From: a virus
Length of the DNA: 64,000 bases
IMG/VR virus record: IMGVR_UViG_3300025098_000019
Coordinates: 46,011-110,010 of that record
Direction: 5' to 3' (one strand)
The position numbers were made by a program, and so were the translations under genes. Shown in pieces: positions 9,247 to 29,329 of this stretch (the first letter of the stretch is position 1; each line of letters starts with the position of its first letter). The notes under the pieces are model-generated. The model was given only the letters and a program-made list of their open reading frames with translations, was not told the origin of the DNA and ran no database searches.

Positions 9247-10266
9247 TTGTTTAAGAAAGCAGCAGTTTTTACTGACATACATTTTGGCCTAAAAGGCAAC
9301 AGTCGCATACATAATGATGATTGCGAAGAATTTGTAGATTGGTATATCGAAAAAGCCAAAGAACACGGATGCGAAACAGGAATATTCTGTGGCGACTGGC
9401 ACCATAACAGAAACAGCCTTAACCTTACAACTATGGATGCAACTATTCGTAGTTTAGAAAAACTTGGTAAGGCATTTGATAAATTTTATATGTTTGTGGG
9501 TAATCACGACTTGTACTATAAAGACAAGCGCAATGTTAGTTCAACTATATTTGGAAAACACATTGAAGGTATTACATTTATAGATGAAATTTATCAAGAA
9601 GATGATGTGGCTCTTGTACCGTGGCTAGTAGGCGACGAGTGGAAGAAGATTGAAAAAATTAAGTCCAAGTATATGTTTGGGCATTTTGAATTACCAAGTT
9701 TTTATATGAATGCTTTGGTTAGAATGCCTGATCACGGTGACTTACGCCCTCAACACTTTAAACATCAAGAGTACGTGTTTAGTGGACATTTCCACAAACG
9801 TCAAGTACAAGGTAAAATACATTATATCGGAAATGCTTTTCCTCACAACTATGCAGATGTAGGTGATGACGAACGTGGCATGATGATCCTCGATCGTGAG
9901 AATAATAAAGAGCCTGAATACATTAATTGGTGGAACTGTCCTAAGTATAGAACAATTAAACTTTCAAAATTAATTGACGATGCAGATGCTTTTATTAAAC
10001 CTAAAATGTATCTAAGAGTTGAACTAGACTTACCTATTAGTTATGAAGAATCTAGTTTCATTAAAGAGACATTTATTAAACAATATAACTGTCGTGAAAT
10101 TACACTAATTCCACAAAAACAAATTGAAGAAATTACTACTGATTTAGATATTAGTACGTTTGAATCAGTTGACCAAATTGTAGCAAGTGAAATAACAGAA
10201 CTTGATACAGAAAATTACGATAAATCGATGTTACTAGACATCTATCATGGATTAGAGAGTTATTAA
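9247..10266 (+). CDS. gp47: Recombination endonuclease subunit gp47 (Mre11/SbcD-like)
   Basis: Metallophosphoesterase motifs DIHFG, GDWHH, GNHD, GHFE, SGHFH. Confidence 0.95.
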   Translation: MFKKAAVFTDIHFGLKGNSRIHNDDCEEFVDWYIEKAKEHGCETGIFCGDWHHNRNSLNLTTMDATIRSLEKLGKAFDKFYMFVGNHDLYYKDKRNVSSTIFGKHIEGITFIDEIYQEDDVALVPWLVGDEWKKIEKIKSKYMFGHFELPSFYMNALVRMPDHGDLRPQHFKHQEYVFSGHFHKRQVQGKIHYIGNAFPHNYADVGDDERGMMILDRENNKEPEYINWWNCPKYRTIKLSKLIDDADAFIKPKMYLRVELDLPISYEESSFIKETFIKQYNCREITLIPQKQIEEITTDLDISTFESVDQIVASEITELDTENYDKSMLLDIYHGLESY

Positions 10267-12039
10267 ATGATTCGCATTAAAGACCTAACTGTTAAAAACT
10301 TTATGAGTGTGGGTAATCAAACACAGGCTGTAGATTTTAACAAAGACAACTTAACGTTAGTACTTGGTGAAAATTTAGATCAAGGTGGGGACGACAGTGG
10401 CTCACGTAATGGTACTGGTAAAACTACAATCATTAATGCACTAAGTTATGCATTATACGGTACTGCACTTACTAATATCAAACGAAACAACTTGATTAAT
10501 AAAACTAACAGCAAAGGAATGTTAGTTACACTACACTTTGAAAAGAACAACGTAGACTACAGGATTGAGCGAGGACGCTCTCCTAATATTTTAAAGTTTT
10601 ATGTGAACAATCAAGAGCAAGAACAAATTGACGAAAGTCAAGGTGATAGCCGTAAGACACAAGAAGAAATTGATTCCTTGTTAGGAATGTCGCACACAAT
10701 GTTTAAAAATATTGTTGCACTAAACACATATTCAGAACCGTTTCTTGCAATGCGTACAAATGATCAACGTGCTATTATTGAACAACTATTAGGTATTACA
10801 TTATTGTCTGAAAAGGCAGAAGTACTAAAAGAAGGTACACGTAGAACTAAAGATGCAATTACCGAAGAAACTCTTAAGATTGAAGCAATACAAACTGCTA
10901 ACAGTAAGATCGAAGGCACTATTGACAATCTAAAGAAGAATCAACGTGCATGGGTCGCAAAACAACGATCTGATGTTGAAAAACTTAACAAAGCTATTGG
11001 TGAGTTAGAACAATTAGACATCGATACAGAACTTGAATTGCACGAAAAACTATCAAATTGGACTGAACATAATAATTCTATTTTGGCTCTTAAAAAGGAA
11101 TTAAGCACATTAGAGCCGGCACTATTACGTGCTGACAGATCTGTTGAAAAAGCAAAAAAAGATGCCGCTGATTTAGATCAAGGCACATGTCATTCGTGTG
11201 GACAAGATCTTCCTGCTGATAAAAAAGCAGAGATAGAAAAACGCAAACAGTCGGAATTAGAAGATGCTATTTCGTATCAAACAGAGATACAAGAAAAGGT
11301 TTCTTCTGTTGCTGAAGCACTAACAGAAATTGGTGACATTAACGGCAAACCTACAACATTTTACGATACTGCAAAAGAAGCATATGAACATCGAAGCAAC
11401 GTTGAAAATTTACGCAATGCTTTGATAAGTAAACATGAGGATACAGATCCTTATCAGAGTCAAATTGACGAATTAAACGATAGTGCAATTCAAGAAGTTA
11501 ATTGGGAAAGTGTAAATCAATTAACGTCTTACAAAGAGCACCAAGATTTCTTATTGAAACTGCTTACTAACAAGGACAGTTTTATTCGTAAAAAGATTAT
11601 TGATCAAAATCTTGCATATCTAAACAACAGGCTTACATACTATCTTGACAAATTAGGCTTACCACATCAAGTACTATTTCAAAATGATCTAGCTGTTGAA
11701 ATTACACAGTTAGGACAGGATTTAGATTTTGATAATTTAAGTAGAGGCGAACGTAACAGATTGATTTTAGGACTATCATTTGCATTTAGAGATGTTTGGG
11801 AAAGTTTATATCAAGGTGTTAATTTACTGTTTATTGACGAATTAATTGACAGTGGTATGGATACAGCAGGTGTTGAGAATTCACTAAGTGTCCTTAAGAA
11901 GATGGCTAGGGAACGTGAAAAGAATATCTACTTAATTAGTCACAAAGACGAACTAGTTGGTAGAGTTAATAACGTATTAAAAGTAATAAAAGAAAACGGT
12001 TTCACTAGTTACGAGAACGATGTAGAAGTTGTAGAATGA
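10267..12039 (+). CDS. gp46: Recombination ATPase gp46 (Rad50/SbcC-like)
   Basis: KNFMSVG, Walker A NGTGKTT, zinc hook CHSCG, signature LSRGE, Walker B LLFIDE, H-loop ISH. Confidence 0.95.
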   Translation: MIRIKDLTVKNFMSVGNQTQAVDFNKDNLTLVLGENLDQGGDDSGSRNGTGKTTIINALSYALYGTALTNIKRNNLINKTNSKGMLVTLHFEKNNVDYRIERGRSPNILKFYVNNQEQEQIDESQGDSRKTQEEIDSLLGMSHTMFKNIVALNTYSEPFLAMRTNDQRAIIEQLLGITLLSEKAEVLKEGTRRTKDAITEETLKIEAIQTANSKIEGTIDNLKKNQRAWVAKQRSDVEKLNKAIGELEQLDIDTELELHEKLSNWTEHNNSILALKKELSTLEPALLRADRSVEKAKKDAADLDQGTCHSCGQDLPADKKAEIEKRKQSELEDAISYQTEIQEKVSSVAEALTEIGDINGKPTTFYDTAKEAYEHRSNVENLRNALISKHEDTDPYQSQIDELNDSAIQEVNWESVNQLTSYKEHQDFLLKLLTNKDSFIRKKIIDQNLAYLNNRLTYYLDKLGLPHQVLFQNDLAVEITQLGQDLDFDNLSRGERNRLILGLSFAFRDVWESLYQGVNLLFIDELIDSGMDTAGVENSLSVLKKMAREREKNIYLISHKDELVGRVNNVLKVIKENGFTSYENDVEVVE

Positions 12040-13019
12040 GTAACGAAAAATTTAATAATGCATGTAATAGAATAGCACAGCCATGTCCGCCTATATGGAT
12101 GATGAGACAAGCTGGACGGTATCAAAAAAGTTACATGGAACTAAAAGAAAAATACACGTTTGAACAAATGTGTAAATTGCCGCAACTTGCTATGCAAACG
12201 GCAATGCTACCGATTAACGAGTTTGACTTTGATGCCGCAATATTGTTTAGCGACATACTTTGGCATTTAGAAGGATTAGGATTTCCTGTTGAATTTGCTC
12301 CAGGTCCTAAGTTTACAGAACACTTAACTGAAGAAAACTATTCTAAGTTTACTGATGTTGACTCAGCAATGTTACACCTTGAATTTCAGAAAAAAGCAAT
12401 TATTGCTACAAAAGAAAATTTGTCGCAAAAGAAAAGTTTGATTGGCTTTGTAGGTGGTCCTTGGAGTTTACTTAACTATGCGTTAGGAACTAATAAAGTT
12501 AGTAAAGAGTTTAAAACAATGTATCTTAAAACTGTACTTGTTCCTCTAATAAAAGAAAGTATTAGAGAGCAAAAAAGAGCAGGTGCTGATGTTGTAATGA
12601 TACTCGATAGTGGACTAGACAATGTTAGTAAAAGTTATTACGACACTACATATATAGAATTTCTTAAAGAAATTGCGTTAATTGGTGATGTAGGTTATTA
12701 TGTTAGAGGCATACCAGAAGGAAGTCTTTCTAAAATAAAAAAATTAGACTTCGCTGGCATTGGTATTGACAGTTCTCAAGATTTACCTAAAACATTAAAA
12801 ACATATTCAAAAGGATTTGTTCAAGGAAACTTTAACGAACAATTTTTATTACTTGAAACAAGATTATTCAAATACGAATTAGATAAGTGGTTAGACACAC
12901 TATCAGGTGTAGACACTACAGGATGGATATGCGGATTAGGACACGGTATTACAAAAACTACTCCAACAGATCATATTCATCATTTTGTAAAAACAGTTAG
13001 GAGTCATTTTAGTTCATGA
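12036..13019 (+). CDS. hemE: Uroporphyrinogen decarboxylase
   Basis: PIWMMRQAGRY, DAAILFSDIL, IGFVGGPWSL, VQGN and GLGHGI motifs of URO-D. Confidence 0.93.
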   Translation: MSNEKFNNACNRIAQPCPPIWMMRQAGRYQKSYMELKEKYTFEQMCKLPQLAMQTAMLPINEFDFDAAILFSDILWHLEGLGFPVEFAPGPKFTEHLTEENYSKFTDVDSAMLHLEFQKKAIIATKENLSQKKSLIGFVGGPWSLLNYALGTNKVSKEFKTMYLKTVLVPLIKESIREQKRAGADVVMILDSGLDNVSKSYYDTTYIEFLKEIALIGDVGYYVRGIPEGSLSKIKKLDFAGIGIDSSQDLPKTLKTYSKGFVQGNFNEQFLLLETRLFKYELDKWLDTLSGVDTTGWICGLGHGITKTTPTDHIHHFVKTVRSHFSS

Positions 13020-13756
13020 TTAGAGTCGGTGCAAGAGGAAGTAAATTAGCTCTAGCATATGCTAGGAAAGCATGTGAGCAATTAGATTGCGAAACTGAAA
13101 TTATTGAAATTACAACTCCAGGTGACATCGACACCGAAACTCCTATATACGAAATGGGAGGTAAAGGTGTATTTTGTAGTACAATTGAGCAAGAACTATT
13201 AAACGGTAATATTGACGTTGCTGTTCATAGTTTAAAAGATGTTCCTGGCCAAGAAACAGACGGATTAATAATTGCTGCAATGTTGCAACGAAACAGTCCT
13301 CATGATGTTCTTATTGGAAAAGTTAGTTATAATTGCACTATTGGAACTAGCAGTCCTAGACGTACTGCACAATTATTAGATCTTTACAAAGACTTGAGAA
13401 TTAATATCAAACCTATTAGAGGAAATATAGATACTAGGTTAGAAAAACTTGACAATGGCGAGTATGATGCTATAATACTAGCAGAAGCTGGGCTTCAAGC
13501 ACTTAATATATCAAGACCAACAGTTAAGGTACCAACTATTCCTGCTGTAGGACAAGGTATTATTGCTTTGCAGACTAGACAGGACGACGAAGAAACAATA
13601 AAAATAGTTAAACAGGCAAATCACGATAAAACATTTAAACAGGCAACAATTGAAAGAGCATTTTTAAAAGGCATAGACGGAGACTGTCATACAAAAATAG
13701 CAGCTCACGCAACTGGATCAAATCCAATTACACTTAAAGCAATGTATTATGAATGA
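13016..13756 (+). CDS. hemC: Porphobilinogen deaminase (hydroxymethylbilane synthase), compact form
   Basis: IRVGARGSKLA, GGKGVF, DVAVHSLKDVP, IGTSSPRR, IRGNIDTRLEKLDNGEYDAIILA, PAVGQG, and the cofactor Cys in ERAFLKGIDGDC. Confidence 0.93.
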   Translation: MIRVGARGSKLALAYARKACEQLDCETEIIEITTPGDIDTETPIYEMGGKGVFCSTIEQELLNGNIDVAVHSLKDVPGQETDGLIIAAMLQRNSPHDVLIGKVSYNCTIGTSSPRRTAQLLDLYKDLRINIKPIRGNIDTRLEKLDNGEYDAIILAEAGLQALNISRPTVKVPTIPAVGQGIIALQTRQDDEETIKIVKQANHDKTFKQATIERAFLKGIDGDCHTKIAAHATGSNPITLKAMYYE

Positions 13757-13961
13757 TGACATACACGACGAATTAGTACAAACGTACTTAAAATACTTTC
13801 GGGCAAATGAAAAATTTGCTAGACGTAATTCTGTTAGACTACATGCCGAGGTGCGAAGACATCTTAGAAATCTAAGAAAATTAGCCAAAATAAGAATGGA
13901 AGAGATACACATATACCAGGCAGAAAACAAAGTAACCAGAAAAGACATAGATAAAAAATAG
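13749..13961 (+). CDS. Small basic protein, possibly Hc1-like DNA-binding
   Basis: 70 aa, Arg/Lys-rich; pattern NEKF...N......VRRHL..L.KLAK.R..EI resembles phage Hc1-like proteins. Start overlaps the hemC end. Confidence 0.5.
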   Translation: MNDDIHDELVQTYLKYFRANEKFARRNSVRLHAEVRRHLRNLRKLAKIRMEEIHIYQAENKVTRKDIDKK

Positions 13962-13978: not shown

Positions 13979-14428
13979 ATGCAGTGGACTTATGAAGGCA
14001 AAATTATAGACAATATACCAGACGAATACGAAGGTTTTGTTTATATCATTACAAACACCACTACAGATCAAAAATACATAGGCAAAAAACTAGCAAAGTT
14101 TAAAACTACTAAGCCACCACTTAAAGGCAAGAAAAATAAAAGACGCGGTTACAAAGAAAGCGACTGGAGAACATACTACGGTAGTTCTGATAGATTAAAC
14201 GCAGATGTAGCCGAGCTAGGCGAAGACAAGTTTACAAGAGAAATATTATACCTATGTAAAGGTAGGGGCGAAATGTCCTATATAGAGGCACGAGAGCAGT
14301 TTGACAGGCGAGTACTTGAAACTGATGATTACTATAATGGTATCATTAATGTTAGAGTAGGCGGATCAGACAAACTTAAACAGGCATTGCTAGAACATCA
14401 CATCAAGGCAAAACATTCCAACACCTAA
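13979..14428 (+). CDS. Stand-alone GIY-YIG endonuclease
   Basis: GFVYIITN...KYIGKK, YYGSS, FTREIL, catalytic-type E (IEAREQ) and YYN motifs; no C-terminal DNA-binding repeats. Confidence 0.85.
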   Translation: MQWTYEGKIIDNIPDEYEGFVYIITNTTTDQKYIGKKLAKFKTTKPPLKGKKNKRRGYKESDWRTYYGSSDRLNADVAELGEDKFTREILYLCKGRGEMSYIEAREQFDRRVLETDDYYNGIINVRVGGSDKLKQALLEHHIKAKHSNT

Positions 14429-14830
14429 GGTTGGCGGGCCAGATTAGAAATACCGCTGTGGAAAAAGCTCTCGTATAGAAGCACACGTACATATTGATTG
14501 ACACACCAGAGTGTGGAAGCCACCAAACAAATTGGGCTCACTAGTTGATATAGATTGCATGTTGGCAGTCGAAAAACACAAACACAGTACATAAAAACTC
14601 TTTAGCAATAGGAACGAAGCGAGAGGTAGCTGGAAACAGCGATGTCGACGTAGGTTGGGAAAGGTCAGAGCCCATTGTACTTTGTGTATAAACAATTACC
14701 TACTTCCAATGTCTCGGCTGGTGCGACTCACATGAAGCGTATTTTGAGATTAGATGGGACCGTAACAGGTTCCGTCTGACTGAAACAATCTACATGAAAC
14801 TTAAACATTATTACTTCGTAATAATGCATT
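14429..14830 (+). ncRNA. Candidate large structured non-coding RNA
   Basis: About 400 nt, GC-richer, no credible ORF; many complementary segments (TGGGCTC/GAGCCCA, TAGATTG/CAATCTA, GTAGGT/ACCTAC, GCTG-GAAA-CAGC, AGATGGGACC/GGTTCCGTCT). Strand assumed from the upstream gene and the GAAA tetraloop. Confidence 0.55.
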
Positions 14831-14925
14831 CATCTTTATATTCATTTGTATCTATCTGATGTAATTACTTTAAACGAAGTGTTTAGTTTGAGCGTTAGCG
14901 ATAACTTGTTTCGTGTAGCGAAACA

Positions 14926-14933
14926 TATAAATA
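14926..14933 (+). promoter_or_regulatory. T4 late promoter TATAAATA
   Basis: Exact consensus 30 nt upstream of the ATG at 14964. Confidence 0.8.
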
Positions 14934-14963
14934 CAAGTAATAATTTTAAAGGTATACTCACAA

Positions 14964-15731
14964 ATGAAAATAAATGATATATTAAATGAATCTGATGTTA
15001 AAGCTGATCCAAAGATAGTGGATAAATTTGCTGGCGTAAGTGATAGTCAAAGATCATACTACATATACCAATGGGCAAAAGAAAAAGGCATTGACAGCGA
15101 TGACGCAATGCAACTAGCTGGATATAAGCGTGGTAGTTATATGGGTGCAGGATCTTACATGTGGAACTATGCTCCAAACGAAAGCATTGAGGAAGCACCT
15201 GCAGGTATGTTAAAACAAGTAGGACGTAGACTTGGTGCTAAGGCCGCAGGCGCTATAGGCATGAAAGGCACCGCAGCAAAATTAGGCGGGGCTGCTGACG
15301 CAGGCAAAGCAGCAAATCAGTTAAAAGTTAAACTTCAAGGATACCTTGGTAAAACTGGCGGTAATATAAAGCAATTAGATGCTCAAGAACTTTCTGCATT
15401 TTTAAAACAACAACAACTTCCAACTAACGCTGTACCTGCAAGTGGTATAATTGCACCAAAAGACGTTGATAAAGTTTTAATGAAAACTATTCAAACAAGT
15501 AATAAAGCCGCAGGCGCACCTGCTGGCGATGCACCACAACAAGATGCACCACAACAAGCAGCAGGTGGCGGACAGCAACAAGCAGCAGCACCACAAGCAA
15601 GTGCTCCACAAAAACAAGCAAGTGCTCCGCAACAACAGGCAGCAAGTGCAACAGGAATACCTGCAAATATACAAGCGCAGTTAGATTCGCTAACACCAAC
15701 AGAGAAAAAAGTATTGGCAGGAGTTATATAA
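14964..15731 (+). CDS. Putative internal head/virion protein, Ala/Gln-rich
   Basis: Late promoter; N-terminus MKINDILNE resembles capsid-targeting leaders; low-complexity APQQ repeats. Confidence 0.5.
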   Translation: MKINDILNESDVKADPKIVDKFAGVSDSQRSYYIYQWAKEKGIDSDDAMQLAGYKRGSYMGAGSYMWNYAPNESIEEAPAGMLKQVGRRLGAKAAGAIGMKGTAAKLGGAADAGKAANQLKVKLQGYLGKTGGNIKQLDAQELSAFLKQQQLPTNAVPASGIIAPKDVDKVLMKTIQTSNKAAGAPAGDAPQQDAPQQAAGGGQQQAAAPQASAPQKQASAPQQQAASATGIPANIQAQLDSLTPTEKKVLAGVI

Positions 15732-18010: not shown

Positions 18011-18243
18011 AAGAACGGTAAACCTGACTTTTTAGTAGTTTCCATATTGTCTTTAACAATACCACTTATCATTTCGCGTTCTTCTGAAGACAAATAGTGT
18101 GCTTCAGTGTAGGATAATCCCCCTCGCATATACCAAACAGTTTGTAGTAAATCATTTTTGATTTGCTTGACTTGATTTTCTAGGACCTTAACTTCTTTTA
18201 ATATTTCGTCAAGGGGTAGGTTTAAGATCCTTATGCGAAAAAA
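18007..18243 (-). CDS. gp51-like ORF without its own start, probably expressed by -1 frameshift from gp26
   Basis: Open frame FFRIRILNLPLDEILKEVKVLENQVKQIKNDLLQTVWYMRGGLSYTEAHYLSSEEREMISGIVKDNMETTKKSGLPFF*; begins at the slippery T TTT TTC. The M...LS..E...L...ER pattern resembles gp51. Confidence 0.7.
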   Translation of the reverse strand, partial: FFRIRILNLPLDEILKEVKVLENQVKQIKNDLLQTVWYMRGGLSYTEAHYLSSEEREMISGIVKDNMETTKKSGLPFF

Positions 18244-19088
18244 TTTGTTTGATCAAATGCAATTGGTACTTCGTATGATGCAGGAACACCTTTTGTAATT
18301 TCTTCGTCTGTTGCATCAACTATCATTGGTTTAATTTCAAAAGAATCTTTTTGACTTTGTAAATGATTTTGAATATGCTCAAAAGTTGTTTTATCAGCAT
18401 TTTCAATAAACTCGCTGATGTGTTCTCTACTTGTAACTACATCGTCGCCTATCTGAATAGATTGTATACTAAACTTTATGCTGTCAACAGTAAGATCTGT
18501 TAGTTTTTTAAAGCTAGACTGAAACTGTGATAGTTTTTCTTCTTCAGTTAAGTCTTGATCATTAACAACTGCAAATATTCTTTGCTCTTCAAATGTTTTT
18601 AAGTTAACTGATGTAAATTCTTTGTATGTTAACGGCTTCATTGTAATAGTTAAATCACCCATTATACAAGTACCATTGTATTGTGCAGAAATTAGTCTTT
18701 CAAGAATAATTTTTAAGTCTAACTCAAAGTCTTTTTCTTCTTCAGTTATCGGTGTTGTAGTTGTTAGTGTCATCATATCGCCATAAGTTGCAATTCTAAT
18801 AGCAACTAGTGCAGCGTCAACATCTAAACTTGGCATATTCCATGCATTTTTAATATTAGGAATACAACTTTGAATAATATCAACAGTTGCTTGTCCGTTT
18901 AATAGTGCATCAGGTGTTTTTATAATCATCTCGTCTTTTGCTGTCATAGCATAGACTGGATATTCGTTGTTTTCTAGCAAATCGATACTATTGTTACCAT
19001 AGTATTGACCTTGAGACGGTAAAGATAGGTAAATCTTTGGTTGTCTGAAGTACTTTTGTAACGGATTAGCCGTTGCGGTATTAGTCAT
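18231..19088 (-). CDS. gp26: Baseplate hub assembly chaperone gp26-like
   Basis: LSLPSQG..Y, V.AMTAKDE, LDVDAALVAIRIATYG and the C-terminal NFF typical of gp26 family proteins. Confidence 0.75.
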   Translation of the reverse strand: MTNTATANPLQKYFRQPKIYLSLPSQGQYYGNNSIDLLENNEYPVYAMTAKDEMIIKTPDALLNGQATVDIIQSCIPNIKNAWNMPSLDVDAALVAIRIATYGDMMTLTTTTPITEEEKDFELDLKIILERLISAQYNGTCIMGDLTITMKPLTYKEFTSVNLKTFEEQRIFAVVNDQDLTEEEKLSQFQSSFKKLTDLTVDSIKFSIQSIQIGDDVVTSREHISEFIENADKTTFEHIQNHLQSQKDSFEIKPMIVDATDEEITKGVPASYEVPIAFDQTNFFA

Positions 19089-21957: not shown

Positions 21958-23709
21958 ATGAGTTGGAAAAAACACTTTACACCAGTGCCACAAGGCACAG
22001 CAACAGGCGGATCGTACAGTCCTTTAAGTAATTACAAAGGAAGTATGCCAGGACCTGCTGCAAGAAATTATAATTCACACTTGCCAGATGTATATGTAGG
22101 AAATCCTAATCGTATCGAAAGGTATGGTCAATATAATACAATGGATTCAGATTCTGAAGTAAATGCAGCACTTGATATACTTGCAGAGTTTTGTACTCAA
22201 ACTAATGAAGCAAACGGCACTAATTTTAAATTAAATTTTAAACAAAAAGCAACTAACTCAGAAACAACAATTATATCAAAATATCTACAACAGTGGTGTA
22301 AACTTAATAAGTTTGAAACACGCATGTTTAGATTAATACGTAATTCCTTTAAGTACGGTGATCAAATATTTGTTAGAGATCCAGAAACTAAAAAGTTATT
22401 TCATGTAGACTGTGCAAACCTTACAAAAATTATTGTAAACGAAAGTGAAGGCAAAGTTCCAGAACAGTATGTTGTTAAAGATATGAATTTAAATTTTAAA
22501 GATTTAGTAGCAACTACACCTTATCAAACAAATGGTCAAATAAACAATGGCGGCGCAGGCAGCTATCAAAGTTCAAGCTCAGGCAAAGGATATATTTCAG
22601 GCGGAGCAGGACAAAATGCAGGAACAAGATTTAGTAGAGAAGAAAATGAAATAGCAATTGATTCAGAACATATTGTTCACCTATCAATGAGTGAAGGATT
22701 AGATAATAATTATCCTTTTGGTAATTCATTACTTGAAACTATTTTTAAAGTTTACAAACAAAAAGAATTGCTTGAAGATGCGATTATTATATATCGTGTT
22801 CAAAGAGCTCCAGAAAGAAGAGTCTTTTACGTTGATGTGGGCAACATGCCTTCACACCTTGCTATGCAATTTGTGGAACGTGTTAAAACGGAAATACATC
22901 AGAGACGTATCCCATCGCAGACTGGCGGAGGTCAAAGCGTCATAGACAGCTCATATAATCCGCTTTCAATTAACGAAGACTACTTCTTCCCACAAACTGC
23001 TGAAGGTAGAGGATCTAAAGTAGAAACACTGCCAGGCGGAACTAACCTAGGAGAAATTGATGACCTTAGATATTTTACTAATAAGCTCGTACGTGGTTTA
23101 CGAATCCCTAGCAGCTACTTGCCTACCGGCGCTGAAGATGCTACTTCATCATACAATGATGGACGAGTCGGAACTGCTTATATACAAGAATTAAGATTTA
23201 ATACTTATTGCGAACGCTTGCAAGGCCTGTTAGTTGAAGACTTTGATCAAGAATTTAAACGTTACCTTTTAGAAAAAGGTGTAAACATTGATACTTCAAT
23301 GTTTGATATTCAATTCCAGCCACCACAAAACTTTGCAAGTTACAGACAAAGTGAAATTGATAATGCTCGTGTACCAACTTATACACAAATGAGTGCTATA
23401 CCTTATATTTCAAATAGATTTGCATTAAAACGTTTCTTAGGTATGTCAGATGAAGAGATTGCAGATAACGAAAGATTGTGGAAAGAAGAAAACGTTGAAA
23501 ACTTAGAAGTACCACCAGCAGATGCATCAGGAGAGATGCGTAGTGCAGGTATAAGCGGCGCAGGTCTTGAAGCTGACTTGTCAGATGCCGAAGGCGAAGC
23601 TGCACCAGATGAAGCTCCAATTGAAGGAGGAGTAGGTACTCCGCCCGAAACTAATACTGGTGCAACATTAGGCGGCGGAGATGCCGCAGCAACAGATCAA
23701 ACGATATAA
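21958..23709 (+). CDS. gp20: Portal vertex protein gp20
   Basis: LLEDAIIIYRVQRAPERRVFYVDVGNMP, EDYFFPQ.AEGRGSKVETLPGG.NLGEIDD.YF are T4 gp20 signatures. Confidence 0.97.
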   Translation: MSWKKHFTPVPQGTATGGSYSPLSNYKGSMPGPAARNYNSHLPDVYVGNPNRIERYGQYNTMDSDSEVNAALDILAEFCTQTNEANGTNFKLNFKQKATNSETTIISKYLQQWCKLNKFETRMFRLIRNSFKYGDQIFVRDPETKKLFHVDCANLTKIIVNESEGKVPEQYVVKDMNLNFKDLVATTPYQTNGQINNGGAGSYQSSSSGKGYISGGAGQNAGTRFSREENEIAIDSEHIVHLSMSEGLDNNYPFGNSLLETIFKVYKQKELLEDAIIIYRVQRAPERRVFYVDVGNMPSHLAMQFVERVKTEIHQRRIPSQTGGGQSVIDSSYNPLSINEDYFFPQTAEGRGSKVETLPGGTNLGEIDDLRYFTNKLVRGLRIPSSYLPTGAEDATSSYNDGRVGTAYIQELRFNTYCERLQGLLVEDFDQEFKRYLLEKGVNIDTSMFDIQFQPPQNFASYRQSEIDNARVPTYTQMSAIPYISNRFALKRFLGMSDEEIADNERLWKEENVENLEVPPADASGEMRSAGISGAGLEADLSDAEGEAAPDEAPIEGGVGTPPETNTGATLGGGDAAATDQTI

Positions 23710-27405: not shown

Positions 27406-28575
27406 ATGTCAGAACTATTAGAAAGCCGTTGGTCAGACACAAAAACAGCTCTTCTTGAAGGCCTAGAGGGTAACAAGAAGTCTGTAATGGCTGCCACGCT
27501 AGAAAACACACGCAAGTACTTGTCAGAGAGTGCTACAGCAGGTGCAACATCAGCAGGTAACGTAGCTACACTTAACCGTGTAATTTTACCTGTAATTAGA
27601 CGTGTTATGCCAACTGTTATTGCAAACGAGCTCGTTGGTGTACAACCAATGACAGGACCAGTTGGTCAAATTCACACACTACGTGTACGTTACGCTGATG
27701 CGTTTAACGGCGCTGCAGGTGGGTCTACAACAGCTGGCGAAGAAGCATTAAGCCCATTCAAGATTGCTGAAGGTTACTCAGGTAACACAAATGGTAAAGC
27801 AAGTGCAACATCTTCATTAGAAGGTGAAGCAGGCAACCAAATGTCAATTCAGATCTTGAAGCAAACTGTTGAAGCGAAGACACGTAAATTGTCAGCTCGC
27901 TGGACATTTGAAGCAGCTCAAGATTCACAAGCAATGCACGGCATTGATGTTGAAGCTGAAATTATGGCTGCTCTTGCACAAGAAATCACAGCTGAAATTG
28001 ACCAAGAAGTATTAGGTTCTTTGGCTTCATTAGCAGGTACTGCTTCTGAAGATTTCGACCAAGCTGCGGTATCAGGTACTGCTACTTTTGTTGGTGACGA
28101 ACATGCTGCATTAGCTGTTTTGATCAACAGAGTATCAAACCAAATCGCTCAACGCACACGTAGAGGCGCTGGTAACTGGGCAGTTGTGTCACCATACGCA
28201 TTAACTGTACTACAGTCAGCAACTACTTCAGCGTTTGCACGTACAACAGAAGGCGCTTTTGAAGCACCGACTAACACCAAAATGGTTGGTACATTAAACA
28301 ATGCAATGAAAGTATATGTTAACACATACGCTTCAGATGACAGTGATGTATTAATTGGTTACAAAGGTTCAAGCGAATCAGATGCAGCGGCATTCTATTG
28401 CCCATACATCCCGCTAATGAGCTCAGGTGTTGTACTAGATCCATCAACATTCGAACCAACAGTATCATTTATGACACGTTATGGTTATGTTGAGCTAAAC
28501 AACACTGCGTCATCTTTGGGTAACGCAGCTGACTACTTAGGTAAAGTAGCTATCAACAACGTTAGCTTCAAGTAA
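27406..28575 (+). CDS. gp23: Major capsid protein gp23
   Basis: IRRVMPTVIANELVGVQPMTGPVGQIHTLR, VEAKTRKLSARWTFEAAQD, EITAEIDQE, FYCPYIPL, MTRYG. Confidence 0.98.
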   Translation: MSELLESRWSDTKTALLEGLEGNKKSVMAATLENTRKYLSESATAGATSAGNVATLNRVILPVIRRVMPTVIANELVGVQPMTGPVGQIHTLRVRYADAFNGAAGGSTTAGEEALSPFKIAEGYSGNTNGKASATSSLEGEAGNQMSIQILKQTVEAKTRKLSARWTFEAAQDSQAMHGIDVEAEIMAALAQEITAEIDQEVLGSLASLAGTASEDFDQAAVSGTATFVGDEHAALAVLINRVSNQIAQRTRRGAGNWAVVSPYALTVLQSATTSAFARTTEGAFEAPTNTKMVGTLNNAMKVYVNTYASDDSDVLIGYKGSSESDAAAFYCPYIPLMSSGVVLDPSTFEPTVSFMTRYGYVELNNTASSLGNAADYLGKVAINNVSFK

Positions 28576-28831: not shown

Positions 28832-28924
28832 CTTGTGTTATAGAGTTCCTCATATGAGGACTTATGCGGATTCCACCGCGTAGACCCTAGAACGGCAAAT
28901 GATTTAAACAAAGGAGATATAATC

Positions 28925-29329
28925 ATGGGAAGACCAATTAATAAAAGATTTTTCGGAGAGCCAACAGCAGATGGCAACGAAATCAAAGTACGTTATCGTG
29001 CTACAGGACAAGCAGAAGCAAACGGTTGGATTGTAAAGCAATTAGGATCTAAAAAGTTCCGTTGCTACGATGGTACTAACACAATGGATTGTTACTTAGT
29101 TGACAAATCACAAGGCACTTTAGCAGTAGGCGATATGACTATTACAGTTAAAGACGATGGCGGAACAGCTCGTCAAGTTACTAAAATTTCAGGTCGTATG
29201 GTAACACTTGACTCAGGTGACAAAATTGCTTGGAACTTCAGTGATGCTGCCGATGACAATGCAGTTGAAATGGAAGAAGCTGGCACAGATGATGCATTCA
29301 CTGGCGCAGATGATTTCGAAGCTGACTAA
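28925..29329 (+). CDS. Virion structural protein (possible head decoration)
   Basis: Strong RBS AAGGAG, own late promoter and terminator, close downstream of gp23. Confidence 0.55.
   Translation: MGRPINKRFFGEPTADGNEIKVRYRATGQAEANGWIVKQLGSKKFRCYDGTNTMDCYLVDKSQGTLAVGDMTITVKDDGGTARQVTKISGRMVTLDSGDKIAWNFSDAADDNAVEMEEAGTDDAFTGADDFEAD

What the first reader, a model, noticed from the sequence alone, without database searches (positions are those of the whole stretch)
13979..14830. Small GIY-YIG nuclease followed directly by a candidate ~400-nt pseudoknotted ncRNA
The longest intergenic gap in the window starts at the nuclease stop codon and is GC-richer than its surroundings. Visible pairings: CACAC/GTGTG (14502/14511), TGGGCTC/GAGCCCA (14533/14668), TAGATTG/CAATCTA (14551/14786), GTCGA/TCGAC (14568/14645), ACACAGTACA/TGTACTTTGTGT (14582/14676), GCTG-GAAA-CAGC (14629), GTAGGT/ACCTAC (14650/14698), AGATGGGACC/GGTTCCGTCT (14752/14768). 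Several cross each other, implying pseudoknots or alternative folds, and G-U pairs favour an RNA-level structure. The nuclease has only the catalytic domain. Hypotheses: a nuclease-RNA ribonucleoprotein (by analogy with HEARO/OMEGA loci), a ribozyme, or a replication primer RNA. I do not recognise it as tRNA, tmRNA, RNase P or an intron.
Basis: partly seen in the sequence, partly recalled or inferred. Interest (0 to 1): 0.8.

Follow-up and report, generated by a model that had tools for sequence, protein, structure and literature searches.

The report
Twin-box structured RNA beside phage nuclease
The gene-free stretch behind a small DNA-cutting enzyme gene of this uncultured marine T4-like giant phage encodes a real, knotted RNA of about 425 bases that matches no catalogued RNA family. 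It shows the same 7-letter word twice, the two copies mutating in step, and its job is still unknown.

Summary
Window 14429-14963 is the longest internal ORF-free gap. Its first ~400 nt, plus the last 25 nt of the nuclease ORF, form a conserved, pseudoknotted RNA on the + strand.

On 45 relatives my 83-pair model is 93.9% paired, against 31-41% when partners are slid. 38 pairs show compensatory change.

Nothing in Rfam 15 matches even at E<=10. There is no tRNA or tmRNA, no match in 50,697 phage records, and no exact-core match in 185,579 prokaryote genomes. At least 119 uncultured viral contigs carry the core.

The striking feature is ACAUGAA at 14730-36 and again at 14792-98. In 97 unique relatives the two copies change together (five variant words, 21 sequences) and differ in 3. 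Nothing else in the RNA, the nuclease or about 230 kb of related contigs covaries with them.

The nuclease gene lies within 330 nt in 123/123 cases. However, relatives insert a sigma70 promoter or another ORF between the two, the protein family exists without the RNA, and there is no guide-like segment. A nuclease-RNA particle is therefore not supported.

Earlier agents of this scan found the same family on other genomes.

Best reading: an independent trans-acting RNA that presents two identical pairing boxes. Function is unproven.

The parts
13749..13961 (+). Conserved 70-aa arginine-rich ORF, always directly upstream of the nuclease gene. It belongs to the syntenic block and its function is unknown.
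   Evidence: Present in every full-length related locus. No Pfam or PHROG match.
13979..14428 (+). SegE-type GIY-YIG nuclease gene, 149 aa, catalytic domain only.
   Evidence: Pfam PF19835, E 2.3e-35, residues 3-123. 594+ viral contigs carry it. Its aa identity to relatives is 91.5% and third-position identity 0.77, against 78% and 0.58 for gp46.
14403..14428 (+). Conserved 5' leader of the RNA (AAGGCAAAACAUUCCAACACCUAA), which here overlaps the last codons of the nuclease ORF.
   Evidence: The same leader precedes P1 in relatives where a promoter spacer or another ORF separates it from the nuclease gene. Synonymous third positions here are mostly about 1.0 conserved, though three are low at 0.19-0.64.
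14429..14826 (+). Structured RNA core (P1 to P12).
   Evidence: Patchy block conservation. 83-pair model: 93.9% of cells paired against 31-41% when slid; 38 pairs with both-sided change against 8-19; 0/500 shuffles reach it.
14433..14486 (+). P1 hairpin (14433-37/14453-57), P2 (14458-60/14484-86) and P2a bulged hairpin (14467-72/14478-82).
   Evidence: helices 1-3. All 5 P2a pairs show compensatory change. P2 switches U-A to A-U in 7 sequences.
14491..14551 (+). P3 (14491-97/14545-51), which encloses the P3a hairpin (14502-06/14511-15) and a replaceable arm.
   Evidence: helices 4-5: 3 and 4 compensatory pairs. The arm is swapped for a shorter hairpin in about a quarter of relatives.
14553..14570 (+). 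P4 hairpin with a conserved UGUUGG-containing loop.
   Evidence: 4 both-sided pairs on 97 sequences. helix 6.
14582..14591 (+). P5 5' strand. It pairs with 14676-14687 across P8, forming the pseudoknot.
   Evidence: helix 8: 5/5 pairs compensatory, 100% paired.
14598..14625 (+). P6 hairpin with an invariant 12-nt loop, AAUAGGAACGAA.
   Evidence: helix 9 (3 compensatory pairs). The loop is 100% conserved.
14629..14640 (+). P7, a variable-length peripheral hairpin. It has a GAAA loop here and expands to about 100 nt in relatives.
   Evidence: large insertions at this spot.
14641..14703 (+). Nearly invariant core. It holds P8 (14650-55/14698-703), the P5 3' strand (14676-87) and a tentative P9 5' strand (14663-67).
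   Evidence: Conservation is 0.94-0.99. P8 has 2 compensatory pairs. P9 is 99.6% paired but shows only one-sided changes.
14721..14740 (+). P10, a short variable hairpin whose apical region carries box 1.
   Evidence: Stem variants GUGC/GCGU, UGAC/GUCA and GAUAA/UUAUC. Support is uneven: 67% paired on A1, and local folds offer alternatives.
14730..14736 (+). Box 1, ACAUGAA.
   Evidence: Changes in step with box 2.
14753..14781 (+). P11 hairpin (14753-61/14768-76), followed by the tentative P9 3' strand (14777-81).
   Evidence: helices 15 and 13.
14792..14798 (+). Box 2, ACAUGAA, 62 nt after box 1, in a linker that is unpaired in my model.
   Evidence: Columns 14734/14796 and 14736/14798 match perfectly among the 94 sequences whose two box cores are identical, which is partly circular. 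Three further sequences differ between the boxes. These are the top mutual-information columns.
14806..14826 (+). P12, a 9-bp AU-rich hairpin followed by a U-rich tail. It is the likely 3' end or terminator.
   Evidence: 8 of 9 pairs are compensatory (helix 16). The strict terminator scan did not call it, because the stem has only 2 G-C pairs.
14885..14933 (+). Two further conserved hairpins (14885-14906 with loop GAGCGUUAGCGA; 14907-14925), then the T4-type late promoter TATAAATA (14926-33) of the next gene.
   Evidence: Stems covary in relatives (sequences; conservation 0.75-0.90). Read directly from the sequence.

Best explanation
This is the gene for a stand-alone structured non-coding RNA of about 425 nt (about 14403-14826, + strand). 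It belongs to a family not catalogued in Rfam and found only in uncultured marine T4-like giant phages.

Shown:
- A covariation-supported fold of about a dozen helices with at least one pseudoknot (P5 across P8).
- Invariant segments that are unpaired in the model, a variable peripheral arm, and a terminal hairpin.
- Two copies of the word ACAUGAA, 62 nt apart, which mutate in step across lineages while nothing else in the RNA or the nuclease follows them.

Inferred:
- In this genome the RNA is made as the 3' extension of the early nuclease transcript. Some relatives give it its own sigma70 promoter.
- The folded core is a scaffold that presents the two boxes.
- Both boxes bind the same kind of partner by base pairing to a UUCAUGU-like sequence. 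This could be two copies of one RNA, or two sites of one RNA. Every observed variant keeps an AUG in the predicted partner, directly or through one G-U wobble, so a translation start region is one candidate.
- The nuclease is a Seg-like free-standing endonuclease gene that travels with this highly conserved RNA gene. It is not the RNA's protein partner.
For: - Structure: 93.9% paired cells, 38 compensatory pairs, and slid controls at 31-41% with 8-19 pairs. An independent column scan on 97 unique sequences gives the same helices.
- Strand: invariant or alternating G-U pairs fix the + strand.
- Not coding: no + strand ORF of 40 aa or more. The AUGs in the boxes are lost in the AUAAU and AUAAA lineages.
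- No known family: Rfam at gathering score and at E<=10, and ARAGORN.
- Twin boxes: the 5-nt core is AUGAA in both boxes in 72-73 sequences, AUAAU in 10, AUGAU in 5, GUGAA in 3, AUAAA in 2 and AUGAG in 1. It differs between the boxes in 3.
- No internal complement to the boxes.
- Independence from the nuclease: relatives carry promoter-bearing spacers (TTGACA-17-TATACT/TATAAT) or an extra ORF between the nuclease and the RNA, with the same RNA leader kept.
- Module conservation exceeds that of the flanks. About 22 of 80 contigs break inside it, as expected for a hyper-conserved island.
Against:
- No partner for the boxes was found. It is not within +-6 kb in cis, not the nuclease start site, and not at any orthologous site of five whole variant contigs of 34-64 kb. 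Only 10-30% of each genome of about 350 kb is available.
- A protein that reads the boxes would explain the in-step change equally well.
- The P10 stem that would place box 1 in a loop is only unevenly supported.
- 123/123 linkage with the nuclease is tighter than expected for a selfish neighbour.
Confidence: 0.5

Rival explanations
1. Nuclease-RNA particle. The catalytic-domain-only GIY-YIG protein binds this RNA and uses it for target recognition or regulation, as IscB/HEARO or TnpB use their omega RNAs.
For: The nuclease gene lies within 330 nt upstream in 123/123 RNA loci. The protein lacks any DNA-binding domain. The protein and the RNA are both more conserved than their neighbours.
Against: - There is no variable guide segment; the only lineage-variable words are 7 nt long.
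- No nuclease residue tracks the box type.
- Homologues at 47-70% identity occur in Melnitz, cyanophages and rhizobiophages; the RNA is absent from the one such locus checked (Melnitz) and from all 50,697 phage records searched.
- Relatives insert a promoter or an ORF between the two.
Confidence: 0.12
2. The two boxes are binding sites for a sequence-specific, probably dimeric, RNA-binding protein, such as a translational repressor. The RNA would then be a decoy or assembly platform, and the in-step change would follow the protein's specificity.
For: Two identical words at a fixed spacing of about 56-62 nt. No RNA partner found anywhere in the available DNA. A conserved arginine-rich 70-aa ORF sits in the same block.
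Against: Five different word variants among close relatives would need repeated re-tuning of a protein. Neither the nuclease nor any identified protein covaries. Covariation of orf70 with the boxes was not tested.
Confidence: 0.15
3. A ribozyme, either self-cleaving or a splicing or intron remnant associated with a homing endonuclease.
For: The core is pseudoknotted and has invariant nucleotides that are unpaired in the model. Homing endonuclease genes often accompany group I introns (established knowledge).
Against: - No hit to any intron or ribozyme model, even at E<=10.
- No interrupted gene: the flanking ORFs are complete, and the downstream gene is variable and has its own late promoter.
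- The strand order P5-P8-P9-P5'-P8'-P9' differs from the P3/P7 arrangement of group I.
Confidence: 0.08
4. A cis-acting 3' untranslated element that only stabilises or terminates the nuclease mRNA, or regulates the downstream late gene.
For: It starts inside the ORF's end and ends in a hairpin. It sits at the border of an early and a late transcription unit.
Against: 400 nt of invariant core and a pseudoknot are far more than a terminator needs. Relatives give it its own promoter. A late promoter lies between it and the next gene. The downstream gene differs among relatives while the RNA stays the same.
Confidence: 0.05

Closest known systems
GOLLD and ROOL RNAs (Rfam RF01998, RF03087): large ornate non-coding RNAs often carried by phages
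   Same: Several hundred nucleotides long, with many helices and pseudoknots and invariant unpaired stretches. Phage-borne, with no coding potential and no known biochemical function.
   Different: No sequence or structure match. Not next to tRNA genes. Carries the twin in-step boxes. Restricted to one lineage of marine T4-like phages.
Free-standing Seg-type GIY-YIG homing endonuclease genes of T4-like phages beside stable-RNA genes (e.g. SegB in the T4 tRNA cluster; from my own knowledge)
   Same: A SegE-family GIY-YIG gene sits directly beside a highly conserved structured-RNA gene. The module is more conserved than its flanks, with mosaic borders.
   Different: The protein has no DNA-binding domain. 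It is present in every RNA locus seen (no empty alleles) and is under strong purifying selection. Homing was not tested.
HEARO/omega RNA with IscB or TnpB (OMEGA systems)
   Same: A nuclease gene adjoins a long structured RNA on the same strand.
   Different: The nuclease belongs to a different superfamily. There is no variable guide region and no transposon ends. Protein relatives exist without the RNA. Box type does not covary with the protein.
Phage T4 gene 60 bypass with matched take-off and landing codons beside mobA (from my own knowledge)
   Same: Two identical short words tens of nucleotides apart, with a hairpin between them, next to a mobile endonuclease gene.
   Different: No reading frame enters or leaves the boxes. 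The words are 7 nt long and lie in a non-coding RNA.

Membership tests
Any Rfam 15 family (including group I/II introns, RNase P, tmRNA, GOLLD, ROOL, HEARO, 6S) | Covariance-model score at or near the family's gathering threshold | tested here: not met
   Nothing at gathering score on the region. At E<=10 there are only four chance-level snoRNA/miRNA hits of 16-21 bits.
tRNA / tmRNA (including two-piece tmRNA, which to my recollection related phages carry) | tRNA-like domain with acceptor stem, T-arm and CCA end; tag reading frame | tested here: not met
   ARAGORN finds none in the window. No Rfam tmRNA model hits.
Group I intron with homing endonuclease ORF | Interrupted host gene with two exons that join into one frame | tested here: not met
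   The upstream 70-aa ORF and the nuclease are complete. The downstream ORF is variable or unrelated among loci and has its own late promoter.
Group I intron with homing endonuclease ORF | P3/P7 pseudoknot core with adjacent P7 5' and P3 3' strands and a G-binding site | tested here: inconclusive
   A pseudoknot exists (P5 x P8), but the strand order differs and no model matches. Catalysis cannot be tested here.
OMEGA/HEARO-type RNA-guided nuclease locus | A variable guide segment attached to a conserved scaffold RNA | tested here: not met
   Variable parts are hairpin arms (P3 arm, P7) and two 7-nt boxes. No 15-20 nt unpaired variable end.
OMEGA/HEARO-type RNA-guided nuclease locus | Nuclease and RNA are an obligate pair | tested here: inconclusive
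   123/123 RNA loci have the nuclease nearby. Homologues at 47-70% identity occur in cultured phages; the RNA is absent from the one such locus checked (Melnitz) and from all phage records. The pair is also split by inserts in relatives.
Seg-type free-standing GIY-YIG homing endonuclease | GIY-YIG catalytic domain of the SegE family | tested here: met
   PF19835, E 2.3e-35, covering 1-123 of 123 profile positions.
Seg-type free-standing GIY-YIG homing endonuclease | C-terminal DNA-binding domain and sporadic presence/absence among related genomes | tested here: not met
   Only about 25 residues follow the catalytic domain. The gene is present in all related loci, at 57-100% identity.
Twin-box RNA family noted earlier in this scan on other genomes | About 400-nt pseudoknotted RNA after the GIY-YIG gene, with one 7-nt word present twice and changing in step | tested here: met
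   Structure. Boxes. Sequence overlap with the earlier findings.

The most novel reading that the evidence does not exclude
A new class of phage regulatory RNA. A large knotted scaffold presents two identical 7-nt 'reader' boxes, and each captures the start-codon region (N-U-Y-AUG-U) of an mRNA or another RNA loop. One RNA would then clamp two targets and switch translation during infection. The box word would co-evolve with a partner encoded elsewhere in the genome of about 350 kb.
Probability: 0.2. Interest if true: 0.85.

Novelty: categorically new. Interest (0 to 1): 0.72.

Why it matters
Large, intricately folded RNAs without a known job are rare. OLE, GOLLD, ROOL, HEARO and raiA are the main examples, and each has opened new biology once studied.

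This RNA is abundant in marine viromes: at least 119 contigs carry the exact core. It sits in the conserved replication and recombination gene block of giant T4-like phages. It is more conserved than the neighbouring essential genes.

It also carries a rare evolutionary signature: two identical words that mutate together. That signature gives a concrete handle for finding its partner.

Practically, the island breaks metagenome assemblies, and it could serve as a marker for this phage lineage.

Tried and rejected
- Rfam at both thresholds and ARAGORN found nothing.
- Single-sequence folding is not significant on either strand: z -1.26 and +0.17.
- The RNAalifold consensus found only part of the fold and forced a wrong long-range closure.
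- Boxes pairing with the nuclease start site (UUCAUG in the window): rejected, because the start context varies without relation to box type.
- Boxes pairing with a site within +-6 kb, or with U-rich words after the terminator: no covarying complement.
- Boxes pairing with another part of the RNA: no column follows them.
- A partner elsewhere in the phage: five whole variant contigs were compared site by site, and only the boxes themselves covary.
- In G000 no convincing gene start reads UUCAUGU.
- Box type against nuclease residues: no association.
- The internal promoter TTGACA(14301)/GATGAT(14324) is not conserved at synonymous sites.
- GUAGGUUG/CAAUCUAC as an alternative to P8: broken in the lineages where P8 is compensated.
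- The tmRNA idea rested on my recollection that related Melnitz/pelagimyophages carry a two-piece tmRNA: no support.
- Literature: a 2023 catalogue of viral structured-RNA candidates from IMG/VR lists only elements of 29-151 nt, and its supplements are not held. I could not check whether fragments of this RNA are listed there.
- One literature search was uninformative.

Full report
**Setting.** The window is part of a 110-kb IMG/VR viral contig, which CheckV estimates at 30% complete. That implies a genome of roughly 350 kb. It is a T4-like myovirus:
- gp47-like phosphoesterase and gp46-like SMC/AAA ATPase at 9247-12039
- portal gp20 at 21958-23709
- major capsid gp23 at 27406-28575
- a T4 baseplate protein at 18231-19088 on the minus strand
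- two haem-pathway auxiliary genes, hemE at 12036-13019 and hemC at 13016-13756

Next come a conserved 70-aa arginine-rich ORF (13749-13961) and the 149-aa GIY-YIG ORF (13979-14428). The latter is a full SegE-type catalytic domain and little else. The stretch 14429-14963 is the longest internal ORF-free gap of the window.

**Is the RNA real?**
- The nuclease protein recovers more than 594 viral contigs. The 80 fetched are all syntenic: gp47, gp46, optional hemE/hemC, orf70, nuclease, gap, then variable late genes.
- The gap aligns at 70-97% identity as far as about 14830 and then decays.
- Conservation is patchy in the way structured RNAs are. Blocks of 95-100% identity (14610-19, 14650-79, 14770-99) alternate with variable hairpin arms and one spot where relatives insert up to about 100 nt.
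- I wrote an 83-pair, 16-helix model from a column-pair scan of 97 unique sequences and counted it on the 45-sequence alignment A1.
- Results of that count: 93.9% of cells pair, against 31-41% when the 3' partners are slid. 38 pairs carry both-sided change, against 8-19. The covariation score is 0.238 against 0.04-0.05. None of 500 shuffles reaches the observed values.
- P5 (14587-91 with 14676-80) is compensatory at all five pairs and crosses P8 (14650-55 with 14698-703), which has two compensatory pairs. At least one pseudoknot is therefore established.
- A second crossing helix, P9 (14663-67 with 14777-81), is always complementary but shows only one-sided changes, so it stays tentative.
- G-U pairs that never vary, or that alternate with A-U or G-C, place the RNA on the + strand.
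- There is no + strand ORF of 40 aa or more.
- The folding energy of the single sequence is unremarkable, so the case rests on comparison.

**Extent and transcription.**
- The conserved element begins before the stop codon. In relatives that carry an insert between nuclease and RNA, the 25 nt before P1 (AGGCAAAACAWUCCAACACMUAAGG) are still present.
- In the window these 25 nt are the last codons of the ORF. Most of their synonymous positions are almost invariant, although three (14416, 14404, 14425) are not.
- Four relatives (L160, L198, L191, L125) carry a spacer with a textbook sigma70 promoter, TTGACA-17-TATACT or TATAAT, about 65 nt before P1.
- Four others (L146, L155, L103, L131) carry an extra 87-102 aa ORF at that place.
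- The RNA is thus a unit of its own. In the window no conserved promoter lies in front of it: the TTGACA/GATGAT match at 14301-29 is not kept at synonymous sites. I infer co-transcription with the nuclease gene here.
- The 3' end is most likely the 9-bp hairpin P12 (14806-26), which covaries at 8 of 9 pairs.
- After it come two more conserved hairpins and the late promoter TATAAATA (14926-33) of the next gene.

**What it is not.**
- No Rfam 15 family matches at gathering score or at E<=10. There is no tRNA or tmRNA.
- No similar DNA occurs in 50,697 phage records beyond a piece of the nuclease gene.
- The exact core pattern occurs in at least 119 viral contigs and in none of 185,579 prokaryote genomes.
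- There is one copy in the 110-kb contig. There is none beside the closest cultured nuclease homologue, Methylophilales phage Melnitz at 70% aa identity.
- There is no interrupted gene, so an intron is unlikely.

**The twin boxes.**
- Notes of earlier agents of this scan on other genomes pointed me to a word present twice. I tested this here.
- ACAUGAA stands at 14730-36, in the apical part of the short variable hairpin P10, and at 14792-98, in the linker before P12.
- Among 97 unique relatives, the 5-nt core is AUGAA in both boxes in 72-73 sequences, AUAAU in 10, AUGAU in 5, GUGAA in 3, AUAAA in 2 and AUGAG in 1. It differs between the boxes in only 3. One of these (L174) looks like a recombinant that took its 3' end from an AUGAU lineage.
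- Among the sequences whose two box cores are identical, the box columns are each other's best predictors and no third column follows them.
- At least five separate double changes are needed, so the coupling is selected.
- The partner is not inside the RNA, not the nuclease start site, and not any nuclease residue.
- It is also not any orthologous site in five complete variant contigs of 34-64 kb. Those contigs cover only 9-18% of their genomes.
- The predicted complement keeps an AUG in every variant, with one G-U wobble for GUGAA, and varies at the three bases before it. This fits a translation start region, but it is inference only.

**The nuclease link.**
- All 123 RNA loci with enough upstream sequence have the nuclease gene within 330 nt, and 110 abut it.
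- The gene is under strong purifying selection: 91.5% aa identity against 78% for gp46. Its synonymous sites are also more alike than those of gp46, 0.77 against 0.58.
- The nuclease-RNA block is therefore more conserved or more often exchanged than its surroundings. That also explains why about 22 of 80 contigs end inside 14449-14630 and many others start there.
- These facts fit a Seg-like endonuclease gene riding with a conserved RNA gene. They do not exclude a functional pair.
- Against a guide-RNA particle stand four points: the absence of a guide segment, the inserts between the two genes, protein homologues in cultured phages, none of which carries the RNA at blastn sensitivity, and the lack of covariation with the boxes.

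**Verdict.** The finding is a genuine large structured RNA of a family not in Rfam, already met by this scan in other genomes. Its nuclease-partner reading is not supported. The most likely mechanism is a trans-acting scaffold RNA that offers two identical pairing boxes, and this is unproven. I give about 0.9 to 'real structured RNA of an undescribed family' and about 0.5 to the whole explanation including the mode of action.

Noticed in passing
window 28847-28927 (+): A freshwater-2 RNA motif (Rfam RF02980, 52.4 bits, above gathering score) sits in the gap right after the major capsid gene gp23. This is the second-longest internal ORF-free gap of the window.
   Followed up: no
window 12036-13756 (+): Two haem-biosynthesis auxiliary genes, hemE (URO-D) and hemC (porphobilinogen deaminase), are inserted between gp46 and orf70. 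Most related contigs lack one or both of them.
   Followed up: partly
window 14885-14925 (+): Two conserved covarying hairpins lie between the RNA's terminal hairpin and the late promoter. The first has a conserved loop, GAGCGNUAGCGA. They may be a separate small element or terminators.
   Followed up: partly
window 14449-14630, and the ends of L004, L013, L016, L024, L054, L065 and others: About a quarter of related metagenome contigs end or begin inside the RNA gene. This is most simply an assembly break at a hyper-conserved island flanked by variable arms, as with rRNA genes.
   Followed up: partly
window 13749-13961 (+): A conserved 70-aa arginine-rich ORF with no family match always precedes the nuclease gene. 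It is a candidate RNA-binding partner that I did not test against box type.
   Followed up: no
L146 2367-2675 and L103 4380-4658: In some relatives a small ORF ending in a YL.W...ELxRRY-like motif is inserted between the nuclease gene and the RNA. L155 and L131 carry different small ORFs at the same spot.
   Followed up: no
window 31475-58773 (+): Three giant ORFs of 2234, 2509 and 3563 aa lie in the late region. I did not examine them.
   Followed up: no
window 14955-14970 (+): The start region of the downstream late gene reads ACUCACAAAUGAAA, which resembles box 1 with its flank (ACUCACAUGAAG). Relatives with other downstream genes do not show this, so it may be chance.
   Followed up: partly
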